64,000 bases of DNA, from positions 381-64,380 of the forward strand of contig CALEII010000052.1 of the NCBI GenBank assembly GCA_937876205.1, written 5' to 3'. Position 1 is the stretch's first letter; each line of letters starts with the position of its first letter. A program made the translations under genes and the position numbers. Of the stretch, positions 1,859 to 7,068 are shown one piece after another. This DNA comes from an uncultured Clostridia bacterium. Its GTDB lineage: Bacteria; Bacillota; Clostridia; Oscillospirales; Acutalibacteraceae. The notes below the pieces were generated by a model. The model was given only the letters and a program-made list of their open reading frames with translations. It did no database searches and was not told where the DNA came from.

Positions 1859-1945
1859 TTAAACACTTGAATAAACAGGAGCAATATGTTATAATATTTA
1901 CATTATGGCATATTGCTTTTAATTTTTTTGTTCGGAAGTGAAAAA

Positions 1946-3808
1946 ATGATAAGAATTTTTAAAATGCTGAAGCCTTATCGTGGCACACTTGTTCTCTCGA
2001 TATTCTTTTCGGCACTTTATGCAATACTTGAAATACTGCTCCCTGTTCTGACTAAGGAAATACTCAGTAAGGGTATTATTGCCAAGGATATGGGCAACAT
2101 CATCTACTACGGTGCAATTATGCTGGTGATGACTGTTGTCTGCGGTACAATGTCCTTGCTCAATACATATTTTTCAACAAAAACCTCTGTAAATTATGCC
2201 AACGGAATCAGAAACACTGTGTTTGAAAAGGTGTCTCATCTTTCACAGAGCGATGTTGACAGAATAGGCGTTTCATCAATGATGACCAGAACAACAAATG
2301 ATGTCCGTCAGGTGCACGATGTTGTCCTCAGTACACTCAAATCAATTCTGCCCATTCCCATTATGCTTGTGGGTGGCTTTTATATGGCATATAAGACAAA
2401 TAAAGAGCTTCTCAGACTCATATTTGTCGTTATTCCTTTTCTGCTTATACTCGTTGCGGTTCTGCTTATCATTATTTTACCTATGTTTTCAAAAGTACAG
2501 AAGCTTCTTGATAAGCTCAATTTTATCCTCAGAGGTAAAATAGGCGGAATAAGAGTAATCAGAGCCTTCAATAAATCAGAGTATGAAGATGAAAGATTTG
2601 ACGAAAGCAATGAAAAGCTCACAAAGCTGAGCCTTCGTGCCAACAGAATTCTTTCAACGCTGTTCCCGATTCTCACCGTGGCGCTGTATTCACTTATCTG
2701 CTACATTATGTATGTCAGCGTAATGAATGTTATGGATGAAAGTCTCACAAAACAGCAGATTCTTGAGACCATTCCCAATATGTATATGTTTATTACATAT
2801 TTCACTCTTATTATCGGTGCTCTCACATCTGTAGTTGCTATAATAGTGTCATTCCCGAGAGCCTCAGTTTCTGCAAAGCGTATAAACGAAATTCTTGATT
2901 CGGTGCCTGAGATAAATGAGCCCGAAAATCCTGTTTCACCGTTGCCTGAGAATAAAGGCATTGTTGAATTCAGAAATGTATCATTCAGATATAAACCTGT
3001 GGAAGAGGAGAGTAAGAAAAAAGGTCTTGCAAAGCTTCTGCAGAAGAAAGCAGATGCGAAAAAGAAAGAAAATGATGACAGCTCTGATGATAAAAAGAAA
3101 ACAGATACCGATGCAATCAGTGATATCAGTTTTATTTCCCGTCCCGGAGAAATGACGGCTATAATCGGTGTCACAGGCTGCGGTAAAAGCACGGTCGCAA
3201 ATCTTATCCCCAGACTTTATGATGTCACTGAGGGGCAGATTCTTGTAAACGGTGTTGATGTGCGTGAGTTGTCATTTGCGGAATTACATTCATCAATTGC
3301 ATATGTTCCCCAGCAGAGCTATCTGTTCAGCGGAACGGTAAGAGATAACATTCTTTTCGGCAATCCCGATGCCACTGACGATGAAATCTGGCGTGCAATT
3401 GAAATTGCTCAGGCAAAGACATTTGTCAGCAATATGACTGAAGGTATTGACAGCTTTGTTTCTCAGGCAGGCAAAAATTATTCAGGCGGTCAGAAACAGA
3501 GACTTGCCATTGCAAGAGCAATTGTAAAAAATGCAGAAATCTATATTTTTGACGACAGTTTTTCTGCTCTTGACCTTGCAACAGATGCAAGACTGCGTGC
3601 ATCGCTGAAGGAAAATCTGCCTGATGCAAATATAATTGTTATTGCTCAGCGTGTGGGCACTGTAATAAATGCAGACAGAATTATTGTAATGGATGAAGGT
3701 AAGGCTGTAGGCATCGGTACCCATGAGGAGCTTATGGAAGGTTGTGAAGTTTACAGAAGTATTGTAGCCTCACAGCTTTCAGAGGATGAACAGGAGGCGA
3801 CAGTATGA
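1946..3808 (+). CDS. ABC exporter half-transporter with degenerate nucleotide-binding site
   Basis: SD ggaagtga lies just upstream of ATG 1946; the ORF-track start at 1913 has none. Walker A GVTGCGKST and signature YSGGQKQR are present. Walker B is IYIFDDS (D replaces the catalytic E) and the H-loop is VIAQRVG (Q replaces H). Overlaps the next gene by ATGA. Confidence 0.88.
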   Translation: MIRIFKMLKPYRGTLVLSIFFSALYAILEILLPVLTKEILSKGIIAKDMGNIIYYGAIMLVMTVVCGTMSLLNTYFSTKTSVNYANGIRNTVFEKVSHLSQSDVDRIGVSSMMTRTTNDVRQVHDVVLSTLKSILPIPIMLVGGFYMAYKTNKELLRLIFVVIPFLLILVAVLLIIILPMFSKVQKLLDKLNFILRGKIGGIRVIRAFNKSEYEDERFDESNEKLTKLSLRANRILSTLFPILTVALYSLICYIMYVSVMNVMDESLTKQQILETIPNMYMFITYFTLIIGALTSVVAIIVSFPRASVSAKRINEILDSVPEINEPENPVSPLPENKGIVEFRNVSFRYKPVEEESKKKGLAKLLQKKADAKKKENDDSSDDKKKTDTDAISDISFISRPGEMTAIIGVTGCGKSTVANLIPRLYDVTEGQILVNGVDVRELSFAELHSSIAYVPQQSYLFSGTVRDNILFGNPDATDDEIWRAIEIAQAKTFVSNMTEGIDSFVSQAGKNYSGGQKQRLAIARAIVKNAEIYIFDDSFSALDLATDARLRASLKENLPDANIIVIAQRVGTVINADRIIVMDEGKAVGIGTHEELMEGCEVYRSIVASQLSEDEQEATV

Positions 3809-5739
3809 GCAGAAAAACAGTGAATACGGTTGTTCCTGAAGATGTAGAGAAGCTTGAAAGAAAGTATTCTTCATATAATCAGCAGAGTGACGACAAGAAG
3901 AATGTAAAAAATGCCAAGGGAACAACAATGAGGTTTTTTAGTCTGCTGAAGCCTTATTGGTTCGGCGTTACAATTGTGTGTATTGCGTCTGTTGTCAGCA
4001 CCATAGCCAATGTTGTGGCACCCGACTATATGGCAGATATTATTGACAATATTCAGTTTGCCATTGAGGATTTTGCAAATAACGGTACACCTATTGCTTT
4101 TGGCGAAATAACCGATACATCATCAATCATTTATCAGATAGTGTCACTGGGATTTGTTTATTTTATAGTCGGGCTTATGACCTTTGTTCAGCAGTTTGTC
4201 GGTGCTGGAGTTACGCAGAAGCTTGTGTTCAATTTAAGACAGCAGGTGAATGTGAAGCTCTCAAACCTTCCCCTGAGTTATTTTGACAAGAATACCAAGG
4301 GTGATATAATCAGTAAGGTTGTAAATGATATTGATAATGTCTCACAGAATCTGCAGAACAGCTTTCTTACAGTTCTCACAGGTGTGATTCAGGTAATAGG
4401 TGCTCTTTATATGATGTTGAAAACGGGAAATCTGCTTATGACTTTTGCGGCAATATTCCTCGTTCCCTTCAGCGGCACCATAGCCTATAAGCTTGCAAAG
4501 ATATCAAAAAAGTGGTTTTCAAGGTACTGGAGCTCAATGGGCGCTATGAACGGTCACGTTGAGGAGATGTATTCAGGTCATACGCTTGTCAGAATTTTTA
4601 ACCACGAAAAACAGTCAATAGATGAATTCAGACTCATCAACGATAATCTTAAGAAAAACAGCTTTGCAGCCAATATGGTTGCAGGTATTCTCAATCCCAT
4701 TCTGACCTTTGTCAAAAATGTGAACTATGTTTCTGTATGTATTATCGGTGGCTGCTATTATATGGGCAGATGGTTCAATACAGGCAGAATTATAACAAAT
4801 ACACTCGGTCTCGGTCAGATTGAAGCGTTTCTTTCTTATTCTTCACTGTTTTCTTCACCCATTACAAACATTTCCAAGATGATAAACGGTATCCAGTCAG
4901 CTCTTGCATCTGCAGAAAGAGTGTTTGACCTTCTTGACGAAGAGGAGCAGCCTGCAGACAATACCGAAAATGAGCCTGACGGGCTTTCAAGGGGCTGTGT
5001 TGAATTCAGGAATGTTTCTTTCAGATATAAAGAAGATACACCTCTTATAGAGGATTTCTCACTGTCTGCCACACCGGGCAATCTTGTTGCAATAGTCGGT
5101 CCGACAGGAGCAGGTAAAACAACAATTGTCAATCTTCTTATGCGTTTTTATGATATTCAGTCAGGTCAGATACTTCTTGACGGTACGGATATTATGACAA
5201 TGTCAAGAAATGCTCTCAGAGAAAACTTCGGTATGGTGCTTCAGGATACATGGCTGTTCAAGGGCACGATAAAAGAGAACATTATGTACGGCGTTGACAG
5301 CGCAACAGACGAGGAAATTGAGTCTGCCGCAAAGTCAGCAAATATTCACGATTACATAATGAGTCTTCCCAAAGGCTACGACACAGAGCTTACGGAAGAC
5401 GGTACAAACATTTCTCAGGGGCAGAGACAGCTCATCACAATTGCAAGAGCCTTGTTAAAAGACCCCAAGGTGCTCATTCTTGATGAAGCCACATCATCTG
5501 TTGACACACGAACAGAGTTGCTTATTCAGGACGCTATGGCAGAGCTTATGAAGGGCAGAACAAGCTTTGTAATTGCTCACAGATTGTCTACGATCAAGAA
5601 TGCAGATAATATAATTGTTATGCGACACGGCAGAATTGTGGAGCAGGGAACCCACAAGCAGCTTCTTGCTGATGACGGTTTCTATGCAAATCTTTATAAC
5701 AGTCAGTTTACAGGTGGTATTCCTGAGGATGTTGAGTGA
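3805..5739 (+). CDS. ABC exporter half-transporter, canonical NBD (partner of the preceding gene)
   Basis: SD aggagg lies 7 nt before ATG 3805. Walker A GPTGAGKTT, signature ISQGQRQ, Walker B LILDEATSS, H-loop VIAHRLST. An alternative internal start exists at 3928 (MRFFSLLKPYW). Confidence 0.88.
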   Translation: MSRKTVNTVVPEDVEKLERKYSSYNQQSDDKKNVKNAKGTTMRFFSLLKPYWFGVTIVCIASVVSTIANVVAPDYMADIIDNIQFAIEDFANNGTPIAFGEITDTSSIIYQIVSLGFVYFIVGLMTFVQQFVGAGVTQKLVFNLRQQVNVKLSNLPLSYFDKNTKGDIISKVVNDIDNVSQNLQNSFLTVLTGVIQVIGALYMMLKTGNLLMTFAAIFLVPFSGTIAYKLAKISKKWFSRYWSSMGAMNGHVEEMYSGHTLVRIFNHEKQSIDEFRLINDNLKKNSFAANMVAGILNPILTFVKNVNYVSVCIIGGCYYMGRWFNTGRIITNTLGLGQIEAFLSYSSLFSSPITNISKMINGIQSALASAERVFDLLDEEEQPADNTENEPDGLSRGCVEFRNVSFRYKEDTPLIEDFSLSATPGNLVAIVGPTGAGKTTIVNLLMRFYDIQSGQILLDGTDIMTMSRNALRENFGMVLQDTWLFKGTIKENIMYGVDSATDEEIESAAKSANIHDYIMSLPKGYDTELTEDGTNISQGQRQLITIARALLKDPKVLILDEATSSVDTRTELLIQDAMAELMKGRTSFVIAHRLSTIKNADNIIVMRHGRIVEQGTHKQLLADDGFYANLYNSQFTGGIPEDVE

Positions 5740-5741
5740 GT

Positions 5742-6584
5742 ATGAAACTGATATTTAAAGGCAGCTTTGACGGAAATGAAAGCTCACTTCCCGTAAAAGA
5801 ACATGAAAAAGGTGCGGTTAGGGTGACGGAAATAATCCGAACCAGCCTAAAAACGGCTATTTTTAAGTCTTTTCGGCATTTCGGATTTGAAAGGCGATAG
5901 CCTTCCTTCATCCTCAATACCAAAAATCCAATAAAAATCTCTCGTTTTAAGGTCGAAGATTTTTTACAGTGCGGATTTTTGGCAAGACAAGGCAAAAACG
6001 CAGCAAATCCTTGACGGATTTGCGAGTATTTTAACGAAGTATTGACGGAAATCAGCCTGTAAAAAACGGATTCGTTTTATTCCCGTCACCCTAAATTCAA
6101 AGAATTTGATTCAATGAAAAAGCTTGCAGTATTTGCAAATATTCTTGCTCTTGTGATTTCGGTTATCTGTTTTGCGGTGCTGATTATAAGAGGCAGTATT
6201 TTTGCGCTGAACTTTTTCGGCTTTATTGCGGCAATGGTGACATTATTCCCGCACGAATTACTTCATGCAGTCTGCTTCAGAGAGACTGTTTATATGTACA
6301 CGAATCTTAAACAGGGAATGATGTTTGTCACAGGTCTCGAAAATATGAGTAAAGCAAGATTTGTTTTTATGTCACTGCTTCCGAATCTTGTTTTTGGCTT
6401 TATTCCGTTTGCTATTTTTCTCATTTTTCCGTCAATGACATTTCTGGGCACACTCGGTGCTTTTTCAATTGGTGCGGGAGCAGGGGATTATTACAATGTT
6501 TTCAATTGTCTGACACAGGTTCCCAAAGGCGGAAAGGTATATATGCACGGGATGAATACATATTGGTTTATGCCCGAAGAATAG
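5742..6584 (+). pseudogene. DUF3267-like putative membrane zincin peptidase (HELLH motif), reading frame interrupted by a 271-bp insertion
   Basis: ATG 5742 opens MKLIFKGSFDGNESSLPVKEHEKGAV, which runs into the insertion at 5821. Removing 5821-6093 joins it in frame to KFKEFDS and then to the 156-aa ORF at 6114-6584 (multi-TM, HELLHAVCF). The 3' ORF may still be expressed from Met 6114, but it has no clear SD. Confidence 0.7.
5821..6091. mobile_element. MITE-like non-autonomous element with terminal inverted repeats and a TA target-site duplication
   Basis: The left end is GGGTGACGGAAATAA. The reverse complement of the right end is GGGTGACGGGAATAA (14/15 match; 19/24 over a longer span). It is flanked by TA at 5819-5820 and 6092-6093. 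No transposase-sized ORF lies inside. Confidence 0.7.
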
Positions 6585-6594
6585 GAGAATATGA

Positions 6595-7068
6595 ATGTCT
6601 ATTGAAAGAGTAAGAGACTATTTCAGAGGTCTCGGAATTGACGACAAAATACTTGAGTTTGATGTATCAAGTGCAACAGTTGAGCTTGCTGCTCAGGCTC
6701 TCGGCTGTGAGGGTAAGAGAATTGCAAAAACTCTGTCTTTTCACGTTGACGGAAAGGTCGTTCTTGTCGTTGCTGCAGGTGATGCTAAAATCGACAATCC
6801 GAAGTATAAGGGTGAATTTCACGCAAAGGCAAAAATGCTGTCATACGATGAGGCAGAGACTCTTATAGGGCACGCTGTCGGTGGTGTATGTCCCTTTGCT
6901 GTCAACGAAAATGTTGAAGTTTATCTTGATGATTCACTCAGAAGATTTGAGACGGTTTTTCCGGCTTGCGGCAGCTCAAACAGTGCAATTGAACTGACAA
7001 TCCCCGAGCTTGAAAAGTATTCAACCAACTTTGTTAAATGGGTTGATGTTTGTAAACTTCCTGAATAA
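6595..7068 (+). CDS. YbaK/EbsC-family aminoacyl-tRNA deacylase (prolyl-tRNA editing domain protein)
   Basis: 157 aa. The HAVGGVCPF motif and overall size are typical of the YbaK/ProX editing domain. SD aggaga lies upstream. Confidence 0.75.
   Translation: MSIERVRDYFRGLGIDDKILEFDVSSATVELAAQALGCEGKRIAKTLSFHVDGKVVLVVAAGDAKIDNPKYKGEFHAKAKMLSYDEAETLIGHAVGGVCPFAVNENVEVYLDDSLRRFETVFPACGSSNSAIELTIPELEKYSTNFVKWVDVCKLPE

What the first reader, a model, noticed from the sequence alone, without database searches (positions are those of the whole stretch)
5742..6584. 271-bp TIR element with TA duplication splits a membrane HExxH-protein gene; excision restores one frame
**Inverted repeats and duplication.** The left end at 5821-5844 is GGGTGACGGAAATAATCCGAACCA. 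The reverse complement of 6068-6091 is GGGTGACGGGAATAAAACGAATCC. They agree at 14 of the first 15 positions and 19 of 24. TA flanks both ends (5819-5820 and 6092-6093).

**Split gene.** An ATG at 5742, right after the ABC gene stop, opens 26 codons (MKLIFKGSFDGNESSLPVKEHEKGAV) that run into the element and soon hit a stop. Removing 5821-6093 gives ...GAV-KFKEFDS-MKKLAVF..., a continuous 189-aa frame ending in the HELLH-containing ORF at 6114-6584. As far as I recall, this N-terminus resembles intact DUF3267 proteins. Frame agreement alone has a 1 in 3 chance expectation.

**Element type.** There is no transposase-sized ORF inside, so the element is MITE-like. TA duplication is the hallmark of IS630/Tc1-mariner-type transposition. 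The interior holds several CGGATTT repeats and a hairpin (GCAAATCC ttgac GGATTTGC) of unknown meaning.
Basis: partly seen in the sequence, partly recalled or inferred. Interest (0 to 1): 0.65.

Follow-up and report, generated by a model that had tools for sequence, protein, structure and literature searches.

The report
MITE splits a membrane protease gene
A 271-bp non-coding mobile element has recently inserted into a membrane-protease gene in one strain of an uncultured gut bacterium; this is an ordinary kind of event, but it is well documented because sister strains carry the undisturbed gene and related genomes carry many other copies of the element.

Summary
**Observation:** confirmed. 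Window 5821-6091 is a 271-bp element with terminal inverted repeats (19/24, 14/15 at the tips), flanked by TA on both sides.

**Insertion:**
- It sits between codons 26 and 27 of a DUF3267 (PF11667) HExxH membrane-protease gene.
- Several metagenome or MAG contigs, about 99% identical in the flanks, carry the empty site GCGGT-TA-AATTC and an intact 189-191-aa gene in the same ABC / DUF3267 / YbaK-like synteny.
- More than 1000 homologues have the conserved N-terminus.

**Family:**
- The element is multicopy. I recovered 15 copies at different loci in Acutalibacteraceae/Clostridia MAGs, 78-99.6% identical, including two deletion derivatives.
- Its depth in gut metagenomes is 6-14 times that of the flanks.
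- Nearly all copies are flanked by TA.
- It folds into a terminal helix plus two long hairpins, kept by compensatory changes.

**Verdict:** it is a recently active MITE. No autonomous transposase was found, so the IS630 assignment rests on the TA duplication alone.

**Extra finding:** all 13 informative copies are co-oriented with host genes. Eight of 15 end 10-20 nt before a start codon, abutting the ribosome-binding site.

**Classification:** new member of a known kind, modest interest.

The parts
3805..5739 (+). Upstream ABC exporter gene (644 aa). It is the second of two adjacent ABC genes and is part of the conserved synteny.
   Evidence: PF00664 + PF00005. The same gene order occurs in the empty-site contigs L001 and L028-L031.
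5742..5820 (+). 5' fragment of the DUF3267 gene: codons 1-26 plus the first base of codon 27. An alternative GTG start lies at 5736.
   Evidence: The N-terminal residues K2 K6 G7 G11 L16 P17 E20 H21 A25 V26 are invariant in 13 aligned homologues.
5819..5820 (.). Left copy of the duplicated TA target.
   Evidence: The empty site GCGGT-TA-AATTC has a single TA. All 15 copies have TA on this side.
5821..6091 (+). 271-bp MITE: non-coding and 40% GC, like the window.
   Evidence: Absent from sister contigs and from runs X1, X2 and X4. Copies 78-99.6% identical lie at 14 other loci. No Rfam match.
5821..5844 (+). Left terminal inverted repeat.
   Evidence: The first 15 nt are nearly invariant in the family.
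6068..6091 (-). Right terminal inverted repeat.
5846..5952 (+). Internal long imperfect hairpin A (apex 5889-5906).
   Evidence: MFE and consensus folds. Helices 2-5 have 11 pairs with changes on both sides.
5960..6066 (+). Its 3' arm (6040-6069) is a direct, shortened copy of the left end.
   Evidence: (self-match). Helices 6-7 have 9 pairs with changes on both sides; for example the L023 apex reads GCGAACCC/GGGTTCGC.
5821..5900 (+). Element-encoded tail (26 codons plus stop) fused in frame to the 26 host codons. The predicted product is a 52-aa truncated peptide.
   Evidence: ORF 5736..5900.
6092..6093 (.). Right copy of the duplicated TA target.
   Evidence: This side is TA in 13/15 copies and TG in L007 and L009.
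6094..6584 (+). 3' fragment of the DUF3267 gene: the rest of codon 27 through the stop. The open ORF from Met34 runs 6114-6584 and holds HELLH and the distal Asp.
   Evidence: Against intact alleles there are 5-6 synonymous and 1-3 non-synonymous codon differences.
6595..7068 (+). Downstream YbaK/aminoacyl-tRNA-editing-domain gene, probably co-transcribed.
   Evidence: PF04073. An identical protein is found on 22 contigs, and the contigs that span the DUF3267 gene have it intact.

Best explanation
**Shown**
- Window 5821-6091 is one copy of a multicopy, recently active, non-autonomous DNA transposon (a MITE) that lives in gut Acutalibacteraceae/Clostridia.
- It inserted at a TA (within TTAA) between codons 26 and 27 of a DUF3267/PF11667 gene and duplicated the TA.
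- Sister strains have the intact gene.
- The element is a 271-bp unit: 24-nt TIRs closing a terminal helix, plus two ~105-nt internal hairpins. That architecture is kept by compensatory changes in diverged subfamilies.

**Inferred**
1. It moves by cut-and-paste, catalysed in trans by a TA-specific DDE transposase. This is most likely an IS630/Tc1-mariner-type enzyme encoded elsewhere in the genome. The repeated CGGAWWT motifs and the TIRs would be its binding sites.
2. The insertion is a null or strongly hypomorphic allele. Translation from ATG 5742 stops after 26 host plus 26 element codons. The remaining ORF (Met34 onward) lacks both a Shine-Dalgarno sequence and the conserved cytoplasmic N-terminal module.
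3. In this orientation the element lets transcription pass, so the downstream YbaK-like gene is probably still expressed.
For: **Empty sites**
- P0001 is 98% identical and 191 aa. It lies on L001 and L002 in the same synteny.
- The DNA alignment shows GCGGTTAAATTC where the window has TA[271 bp]TA.
- Contigs L028-L031 are about 99% identical. Their BLAST segments break exactly at window 5820 and 6092.
- Runs X1, X2 and X4 each contain a contig that joins 5818 to 6092, skipping 273 nt.
- Occupied junction: an X10 contig runs from the flank into the element, 5500-5844.

**Gene**
- PF11667 at 72.2 bits.
- 1194 homologues at E <= 0.001. The 120 listed cover 96-100% of the reconstruction.
- Invariant N-terminal residues, plus H80 E81 H84 D158.
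- The family is described as S2P-clan intramembrane metalloproteases (PMC13252029).
- Synonymous differences outnumber non-synonymous ones against intact alleles, which fits a recent insertion.

**Mobility and copy number**
- Element depth is 60/79/200 against flank depth 9/7/26 in X1/X2/X4, with 0-1 mismatches.
- There are 15 copies at different loci including the window.
- TA flanks them on the left in 15/15 and on the right in 13/15.
- Deletion derivatives of 172 and 145 bp still have both ends and a TA or TG on each flank.
- A copy in another MAG (L003) differs by 1 nt in 271.

**Structure**
- MFE is -89.9 kcal/mol (z -6.7) for the + strand and -111.2 (z -9.6) for the - strand.
- 96% of cells are paired. 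23 of 101 pairs have changes on both sides, against 5.6 +/- 1.7 in shuffles and 2-6 in slid controls.

**Read-through**
- Copies sit between hisS and aspS, and directly before the RBS of clpX and rimP.
- Family members occur inside long metatranscriptome contigs.
Against: - No autonomous partner was found. No TIR pair flanks a transposase-sized ORF in GTDB species representatives, JGI metagenomes, IMG/VR, PLSDB or phage records. The enzyme family is therefore unproven.
- A TA-palindromic DDE target predicts no orientation bias, yet 13/13 informative copies are co-oriented with host genes. This needs post-insertion selection or an unknown strand-specific step.
- The occupied allele is seen only in the window and in X10, which may be the same sample.
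- Compensatory changes in hairpins could come from quasi-palindrome correction (template switching) rather than selection.
- There are no RNA data for this locus. The metatranscriptome contigs are unstranded and may contain DNA.
Confidence: 0.87

Rival explanations
1. The element and insertion are the same, but a non-IS630 enzyme mobilises it. One candidate is a DDE transposase that also gives short TA-containing duplications, such as the IS5 family (IS427/ISL2 groups) or IS30. Another is a strand-specific single-strand (HUH, IS200/IS605-like) system, in which the right-hand 'TA' belongs to the element.
For: - No IS630-type parent was found.
- There is a strict orientation bias relative to genes: 13/13.
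- Strong, conserved single-strand hairpins are present. These features are typical of single-strand transposition.
- A single-copy 4.7-kb contig in X4 starts with the left TIR and runs straight into an RBS-like sequence. It could be any kind of parent.
Against: - True terminal inverted repeats of 24 nt, with the first 15 nt near-invariant, are present at both ends.
- The 2-bp duplication is always TA, and the empty site has a single TA.
- From general knowledge of IS families (ISfinder/TnPedia), this is the IS630/Tc1-mariner signature. IS200/IS605 elements lack TIRs and make no duplication. IS5-group and IS30 duplications are not restricted to TA.
Confidence: 0.15
2. The family is more than selfish DNA. 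It would be a host-tolerated or host-used cis-acting RNA module of the ERIC/Correia kind, co-transcribed in the sense orientation just upstream of ribosome-binding sites. There its three-helix fold would modulate mRNA stability, processing or translation. The window copy would be an accidental intragenic hit by the same element. This is compatible with the best explanation.
For: - 8/15 copies end 10-20 nt before the start codon of a co-oriented gene, and none sits in the opposite orientation (two-sided binomial 0.008, my arithmetic).
- 13/13 informative copies are co-oriented with host genes (0.0002).
- The structure is conserved with compensatory changes.
- Family members are present in metatranscriptome contigs.
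Against: - Purifying selection alone can produce the pattern. TA in TAAGGAGG is one of the few harmless targets in compact operons, and the opposite orientation may simply be polar.
- No promoter was found.
- The RNA fold is more stable on the minus strand, which is not the co-transcribed one.
- The sample is only 15 copies, and there is no stranded RNA evidence.
Confidence: 0.25
3. The 271 bp is not an insertion. It would be either a native intergenic or leader region between a small ORF and a short DUF3267 gene, or an assembly chimera.
For: The 3' ORF has its own ATG at 6114, and frame agreement after removal has a 1 in 3 chance.
Against: - Sister contigs about 99% identical have the exact empty site.
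- The 120 closest homologues are all full-length across the junction.
- The same 271 bp lies at many unrelated loci.
- An independent unitig crosses the left junction.
Confidence: 0.02

Closest known systems
RUP (repeat unit of pneumococcus), a MITE thought to be mobilised by IS630-Spn1 (Oggioni & Claverys 1999, as reviewed in PMC2229807)
   Same: It is a non-coding, multicopy Firmicute element with TIRs. It inserts at TA, duplicates it, and is presumed to be mobilised in trans.
   Different: RUP is 107 bp and its TIRs match a known IS630-family element. This element is 271 bp, has two extra long internal hairpins, shows no sequence similarity, and has no identified parent.
Correia / NEMIS elements of Neisseria (PMC2229807)
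   Same: - TA at the termini and a TA duplication.
- Long hairpins form in co-transcribed mRNA.
- Copies lie close to gene starts.
- The parent transposase was long unknown.
   Different: - Correia elements are 104-155 bp and form a single hairpin from the TIRs.
- They carry documented promoters, IHF sites and RNase III processing.
- None of this has been tested here, and no promoter was detected.
ERIC / IRU (RU-1) of enterobacteria (De Gregorio et al. 2005, as reviewed in PMC2229807)
   Same: It is an intergenic, co-transcribed, palindromic MITE whose effect on flanking mRNAs depends on orientation. This is the closest analogy for the orientation bias seen here.
   Different: ERIC is 127 bp and found in Proteobacteria in both orientations. 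Here only one orientation was seen, and there are no functional data.
Prokaryotic MITEs in general (census of 183,232 genomes, PMC11602168)
   Same: The element fits the definition: TIRs of at least 10-15 bp, a TSD of 2-10 bp, no transposase, and mostly intergenic location (about 90% in that census).
   Different: The window copy is one of the intragenic minority. I could not check whether this family is in that census.
DUF3267 / PF11667 proteases such as TmcP (PMC13252029). This is the target gene, not the element.
   Same: HExxH plus a distal Asp, a predicted multi-pass membrane protein, and a position next to ABC exporter genes.
   Different: No RiPP precursor or TmcE/TmcD-like genes were looked for. 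This subfamily has an extra conserved ~33-aa N-terminal module outside the Pfam domain.

Membership tests
Bacterial MITE (non-autonomous class II element) | Terminal inverted repeats of at least 10-15 bp | tested here: met
   19/24 overall and 14/15 at the termini. The repeats are conserved in 15 copies.
Bacterial MITE (non-autonomous class II element) | Target-site duplication, proven by an empty site | tested here: met
   GCGGT-TA-AATTC in L001, L002 and L028-L031, against TA[271]TA in the window. Runs X1, X2 and X4 show a joint that skips 273 nt.
Bacterial MITE (non-autonomous class II element) | Small size and no transposase ORF | tested here: met
   The element is 271 bp. Its longest internal ORFs are 41-58 codons. 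They have no protein homologues apart from one ORF in another copy of the element.
Bacterial MITE (non-autonomous class II element) | Multiple copies at unrelated loci, with insertion polymorphism | tested here: met
   There are 14 other loci. Depth is 6-14 times that of the flanks. Both occupied and empty alleles occur.
IS630 / Tc1-mariner-derived MITE | Strict TA target with a 2-bp TA duplication | tested here: met
   TA on the left in 15/15 copies and on the right in 13/15, the other two reading TG. The target context is often TTAA (7/14).
IS630 / Tc1-mariner-derived MITE | TIRs matching those of an autonomous IS that encodes a DDE (DDE_3 / HTH) transposase | tested here: inconclusive
   No such element was found in genome contigs, metagenome contigs, viral contigs, plasmids or phages. 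MAG assemblies usually drop IS copies. A candidate 4.7-kb contig in run X4 could not be fetched.
ERIC/Correia-type regulatory MITE | Co-transcription with flanking genes, and an orientation-dependent or RNase-mediated effect on mRNA | not testable with these tools
   The evidence is only indirect: an orientation bias of 13/13, and presence in unstranded metatranscriptome contigs. No RNA run holds this locus.
DUF3267 / PF11667 (S2P-clan zincin), the disrupted gene | Pfam HMM match above the gathering score | tested here: met
   72.2 bits against a cut-off of 27.1, over residues 74-172 of the reconstruction.
DUF3267 / PF11667 (S2P-clan zincin), the disrupted gene | HExxH motif and a distal Asp conserved | tested here: met
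   H80 E81 H84 and D158 are invariant in 13 aligned homologues. PMC13252029 names these as the hallmarks.
DUF3267 / PF11667 (S2P-clan zincin), the disrupted gene | S2P-like fold and proteolytic activity | not tested
   No structure prediction or assay was done. This rests on the literature (PMC13252029).

The most novel reading that the evidence does not exclude
This MITE family may have become a sense-strand, co-transcribed cis-RNA module.
- It is retained, or targeted, immediately 5' of ribosome-binding sites of housekeeping genes such as aspS, clpX and rimP.
- Its conserved three-helix fold would tune mRNA stability or translation.

Alternatively, its transposase may be drawn to Shine-Dalgarno-like sequences that resemble the element's own end (TA-GGGTGA versus TA-AGGAGG / AGGTGA). 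That would give an orientation-specific insertion preference not known for TA-targeting DDE transposons.
Probability: 0.2. Interest if true: 0.55.

Novelty: new member of a known kind. Interest (0 to 1): 0.3.

Why it matters
- **A clean case of recent transposition.** Both occupied and empty alleles exist, the copies are near-identical, and deletion derivatives are present. All of this comes from a poorly studied, largely uncultured gut family (Acutalibacteraceae).
- **A natural knock-out.** The insertion strain lacks a working DUF3267 intramembrane-protease gene. This family has only just begun to be characterised, so the strain could help assign a function.
- **A lead beyond a routine annotation.** Copies show a strict sense orientation and lie next to ribosome-binding sites. 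If a larger census confirms this, the family would be a Firmicute counterpart of ERIC/Correia-type regulatory MITEs, or would show an unusual target choice.
- **A practical point.** The family breaks short-read assemblies and can split genes in MAG annotations.

Tried and rejected
**Searches for the autonomous parent**
1. The TIR pattern GGGTGACGGRAATAANNCGAA in genome contigs gave only MITE copies and chance hits. The extra 9-mer TIR-like matches in L011 and L013 lie inside ordinary genes.
2. The same pattern in metagenome contigs gave one divergent copy (L023), a truncated copy (L022, the same as L018) and chance hits.
3. Viral contigs searched with the TA-TIR pattern, and with the 21-mer that follows the TIR in an X4 contig, gave 0 hits.
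4. PLSDB plasmids and phage records searched by blastn gave only short chance matches.
5. The candidate flank motifs were not found in any fetched locus.

**Attempts to harvest more copies through element-encoded ORFs**
- The 41-aa internal ORF is not on record.
- A protein search with the 58-aa internal ORF returned a single hit. This was a poor use of a capped search, although the hit led to one more copy, L038.

**Other negative results**
- Rfam: no family matched at E <= 1.
- Promoter scan: no sigma-70-like site in 5600-6300. Only weak terminator-like hits were found at the hairpin B apex, on both strands.
- RNA-seq for the locus: no run.
- Other copies or other MITE/IS elements in the window: none.

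**Readings rejected**
- A regulatory leader.
- A natural two-gene arrangement.
- An assembly artefact.
- An IS200/IS605-type element, because this one has true TIRs plus a duplication.

Full report
**1.
- I read 5400-6800 and recomputed the ends. 5821-5844 is GGGTGACGGAAATAATCCGAACCA. The reverse complement of 6068-6091 is GGGTGACGGGAATAAAACGAATCC.
- They match at 19/24 positions and at 14/15 of the terminal positions. TA lies at 5819-5820 and at 6092-6093.
- The repeat finder reports the pair as 5818-5841 / 6071-6094, 88% complementary.
- The degenerate 15-mer GGGTGACGGRAATAA, with up to 2 mismatches, occurs only at these two places in the 64-kb window, against 0.21 expected.
- No other inverted-repeat pair reported for the window is as complementary.
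- ATG 5742 opens 26 host codons that continue for 26 element codons to a stop at 5898-5900. The ORF 6114-6584 (156 aa) holds HELLH.
- Deleting 5821-6093 gives one 189-aa frame. It matches PF11667/DUF3267 at 72.2 bits, against a cut-off of 27.1.

**2. It is an insertion, shown by empty sites.**
- A search with the reconstructed protein found 1194 homologues. The 120 listed cover 96-100% of it.
- In an alignment of 13, the N-terminal part is highly conserved: K2 K6 G7 G11 L16 P17 E20 H21 A25 V26 F28 E30 are invariant. So are H80 E81 H84 and D158. None of the listed homologues starts at the Met of 6114.
- The best hit, P0001 (98% identity, 191 aa), lies on two ENA metagenome contigs with the same ABC / DUF3267 / tRNA_edit gene order.
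- The DNA alignment shows ...GGTGCGGTTAAATTCAAAG... where the window has ...GGTGCGGT-TA-[271 bp]-TA-AATTCAAAG....
- A look-up of the neighbouring YbaK-like protein brought contigs L028-L031, one of them from NCBI MAG GCA_045540135.1. They are about 99% identical, all have an intact 189-191-aa gene, and their BLAST segments break exactly at window 5820 and 6092.
- In three gut metagenome runs (X1, X2, X4) a contig joins 5818 to 6092, skipping 273 nt.
- In run X10 a unitig runs from the flank into the element (5500-5844), so the left junction exists in raw-data assemblies.
- Against the intact alleles the split gene shows 5-6 synonymous and 1-3 non-synonymous codon differences and no further damage. 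The insertion is therefore young.

**3. It belongs to a multicopy, recently active family.**
- In X1, X2 and X4 the element interior has depth 60, 79 and 200, against 9, 7 and 26 for the flanks, with 0-1 mismatches. The termini are about three times deeper still. Many different loose ends abut 5818/5819 and 6093-6099.
- One scan of GTDB species representatives with the TIR pattern gave 13 loci in Acutalibacteraceae and 'Clostridia bacterium' MAGs from sheep, roe deer and other guts, plus 4 chance hits in unrelated phyla.
- Together with L023 (JGI) and L038, and counting the window, this makes 15 copies at different loci.
  - 13 are full-length (271-274 bp), 83-99.6% identical to the window copy, apart from the divergent L023 (about 78-79% over the parts that align).
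  - Two are internal-deletion derivatives of 172 and 145 bp.
- TA flanks the left end in 15/15 copies and the right end in 13/15; the other two read TG. The target often reads TTAA.
- The copy in L003, from another MAG, differs from the window copy by one base in 271.

**4. Architecture.**
- The element folds into a terminal helix formed by the TIRs (5819-5845 with 6067-6093) and two long imperfect hairpins.
  - Hairpin A spans 5846-5952.
- Hairpin B spans 5960-6066.
- MFE is -89.9 kcal/mol (z -6.7) for the + strand and -111.2 (z -9.6) for the - strand.
- On 12 copies, 96% of cells pair. 23 of 101 pairs carry changes on both sides, against 5.6 +/- 1.7 in column shuffles (0/500 reach the observed value) and 2-6 when partners are slid. 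For example, the hairpin B apex GCAAATCC/GGATTTGC becomes GCGAACCC/GGGTTCGC in L023.
- The 3' arm of hairpin B is a shortened direct copy of the left end.
- The motif CGGAWWT occurs five times on the + strand, against 0.13 expected. These could be transposase-binding sites, which is inference.
- Caveats apply. The structure was derived from these same sequences. Most covariation comes from two diverged copies. Quasi-palindrome correction could mimic selection.

**5. Where copies sit.** This was not part of the original finding.
- I oriented every copy like the window copy and rebuilt each empty site.
- In 8 of 15 copies the right end lies 10-20 nt upstream of the start codon of a co-oriented gene and directly abuts its RBS (TA|AGGAGG, TA|AGGTGA, TA|GGGTGAG and similar).
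- The downstream genes in seven of these are aspS (after hisS), clpX, rimP, an M24 peptidase, a gltD-like oxidoreductase, a nucleoside deoxyribosyltransferase and a DUF4015 gene. The eighth, after arsR in L013, was not scanned against Pfam.
- No copy has the mirror arrangement.
- All 13 informative copies are co-oriented with the flanking genes (two-sided binomial 0.0002, my arithmetic).
- The left end often coincides with the upstream stop codon, because TA plus the element's G gives TAG.
- Two other copies damage genes. L004 splits an AAA_18 P-loop gene at codon 8, and L013 replaces the last 8 codons of an ArsR regulator.
- Because aspS, clpX and rimP-nusA-infB are housekeeping genes, the element in this orientation must let transcription through or supply it. 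The promoter scan found nothing.
- Family members are embedded in long gut metatranscriptome contigs. These are unstranded, and DNA carry-over is possible.
- The bias is most simply explained by selection against a polar reverse orientation. A targeting preference for SD-like sequences that resemble the element's own end is a more novel alternative.

**6. Consequence for the gene.**
- DUF3267/PF11667 proteins were recently described as S2P-clan intramembrane zinc proteases (PMC13252029).
- Translation from 5742 ends after 52 codons.
- The remaining ORF starts at Met34 with no Shine-Dalgarno sequence upstream (AAATTCAAAGAATTTGATTCAATG). It lacks the conserved ~33-aa N-terminal module.
- I therefore infer a null or strongly reduced allele.
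- The downstream YbaK-like gene has its own RBS. Given the read-through argument above, it is probably still expressed. No RNA run holds this locus.

**7. Which transposase?**
- A strictly TA-specific 2-bp duplication together with TIRs is, by established knowledge of IS families, the signature of IS630/Tc1-mariner. RUP and IS630-Spn1 are the Firmicute precedent (PMC2229807).
- I could not find the autonomous partner. No TIR pair encloses a transposase-sized ORF in any collection searched.
- MAGs usually lose IS copies, so this absence is weak evidence.
- One lead remains. In run X4, a single-copy 4739-nt contig begins with window 5822-5851 and continues GGAAAATTCTGTGCATAATAGGAGGAAAAC, which is RBS-like. 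It could not be retrieved.
- Membership in the IS630-derived class is therefore likely (about 0.65-0.7) but not shown.

**8. Comparison and verdict.**
- The element works like the classical bacterial MITEs: RUP, Correia/NEMIS and ERIC (PMC2229807).
- It fits the general definition used in the recent census (PMC11602168).
- It has no Rfam match, and I found no paper describing it. It is a new member of a known kind.
- Interest is modest. It is a tidy example of recent transposition and a natural knock-out in an uncultured gut lineage. The strict sense orientation and RBS adjacency are the one lead worth a larger census.

Noticed in passing
L005, L006, L007, L010, L013, L014, L015, L038 (copy coordinates): In 8 of 15 family copies the right end lies 10-20 nt before the start codon of a co-oriented gene and directly abuts its RBS. 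Seven of the genes are aspS, clpX, rimP, an M24 peptidase, a gltD-like gene, a Nuc_deoxyrib_tr gene and a DUF4015 gene; the eighth (after arsR in L013) was not scanned. No copy sits the other way round. All 13 informative copies are co-oriented with host genes.
   Followed up: partly
window 5819-6093 and all main-subfamily copies: Folded as RNA, the minus strand is 6-21 kcal/mol more stable than the plus strand in 11/11 full-length copies of the main subfamily. Yet the plus strand is the one co-oriented with host genes. This is unexplained.
   Followed up: partly
window 5995-6067: In run X10 this sub-module (the 3' half of hairpin B) reaches depth up to ~660, against ~81 for the rest of the element and 5.7 for the flank. 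Diverged relatives branch off at 5995 and at about 6038. Other, more abundant families therefore share this module.
   Followed up: no
L009 1684-1855; L019 872-1016; joints 5903->6015 (X4) and 5899->6016 (X24): There are internal-deletion derivatives of 172 and 145 bp, and variants that skip about 111-116 nt. In L009 and L019 both ends are kept, with a TA or TG on each flank.
   Followed up: partly
L006 1667-1937 (hisS-aspS junction): After the element and one TA are removed, hisS runs in frame into aspS with no stop codon. In the occupied state the TGA inside the left TIR (TTA GGG TGA) ends HisS. Either the element now supplies the stop codon or the MAG has a small error here.
   Followed up: no
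L004 4280-4551; L013 6424-6694: Two other copies alter genes. One splits an AAA_18 P-loop gene at codon 8. The other replaces the last 8 codons of an ArsR-family regulator just upstream of the next gene, whose start reads like a heavy-metal-associated protein (not scanned).
   Followed up: partly
L032 and L033 (contig starts correspond to window 6100 and 6108): Two metagenome contigs of this locus begin 7-15 nt after the insertion point. This would happen if the assembler broke at an occupied or polymorphic site. It hints that the insertion allele exists in further samples.
   Followed up: no
run X4, contig of 4739 nt (record 23): A single-copy contig starts with the left TIR (window 5822-5851) and continues GGAAAATTCTGTGCATAATAGGAGGAAAAC, which looks like an RBS. 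It is a candidate autonomous element or a solo end. The sequence was not retrievable.
   Followed up: partly
L018 / L022 positions 1-347: This is a truncated relative. It carries about 75 nt of an L023-type element end with a TA flank, followed by unrelated sequence with a terminator-like hairpin.
   Followed up: no
window 1913-7068: The block of two adjacent ABC exporter genes, the DUF3267 protease and a YbaK-like editing-domain gene is conserved in order in all sister contigs. In a recently described system a DUF3267 protease works with an ABC exporter in RiPP maturation (PMC13252029). No precursor peptide was looked for here.
   Followed up: no
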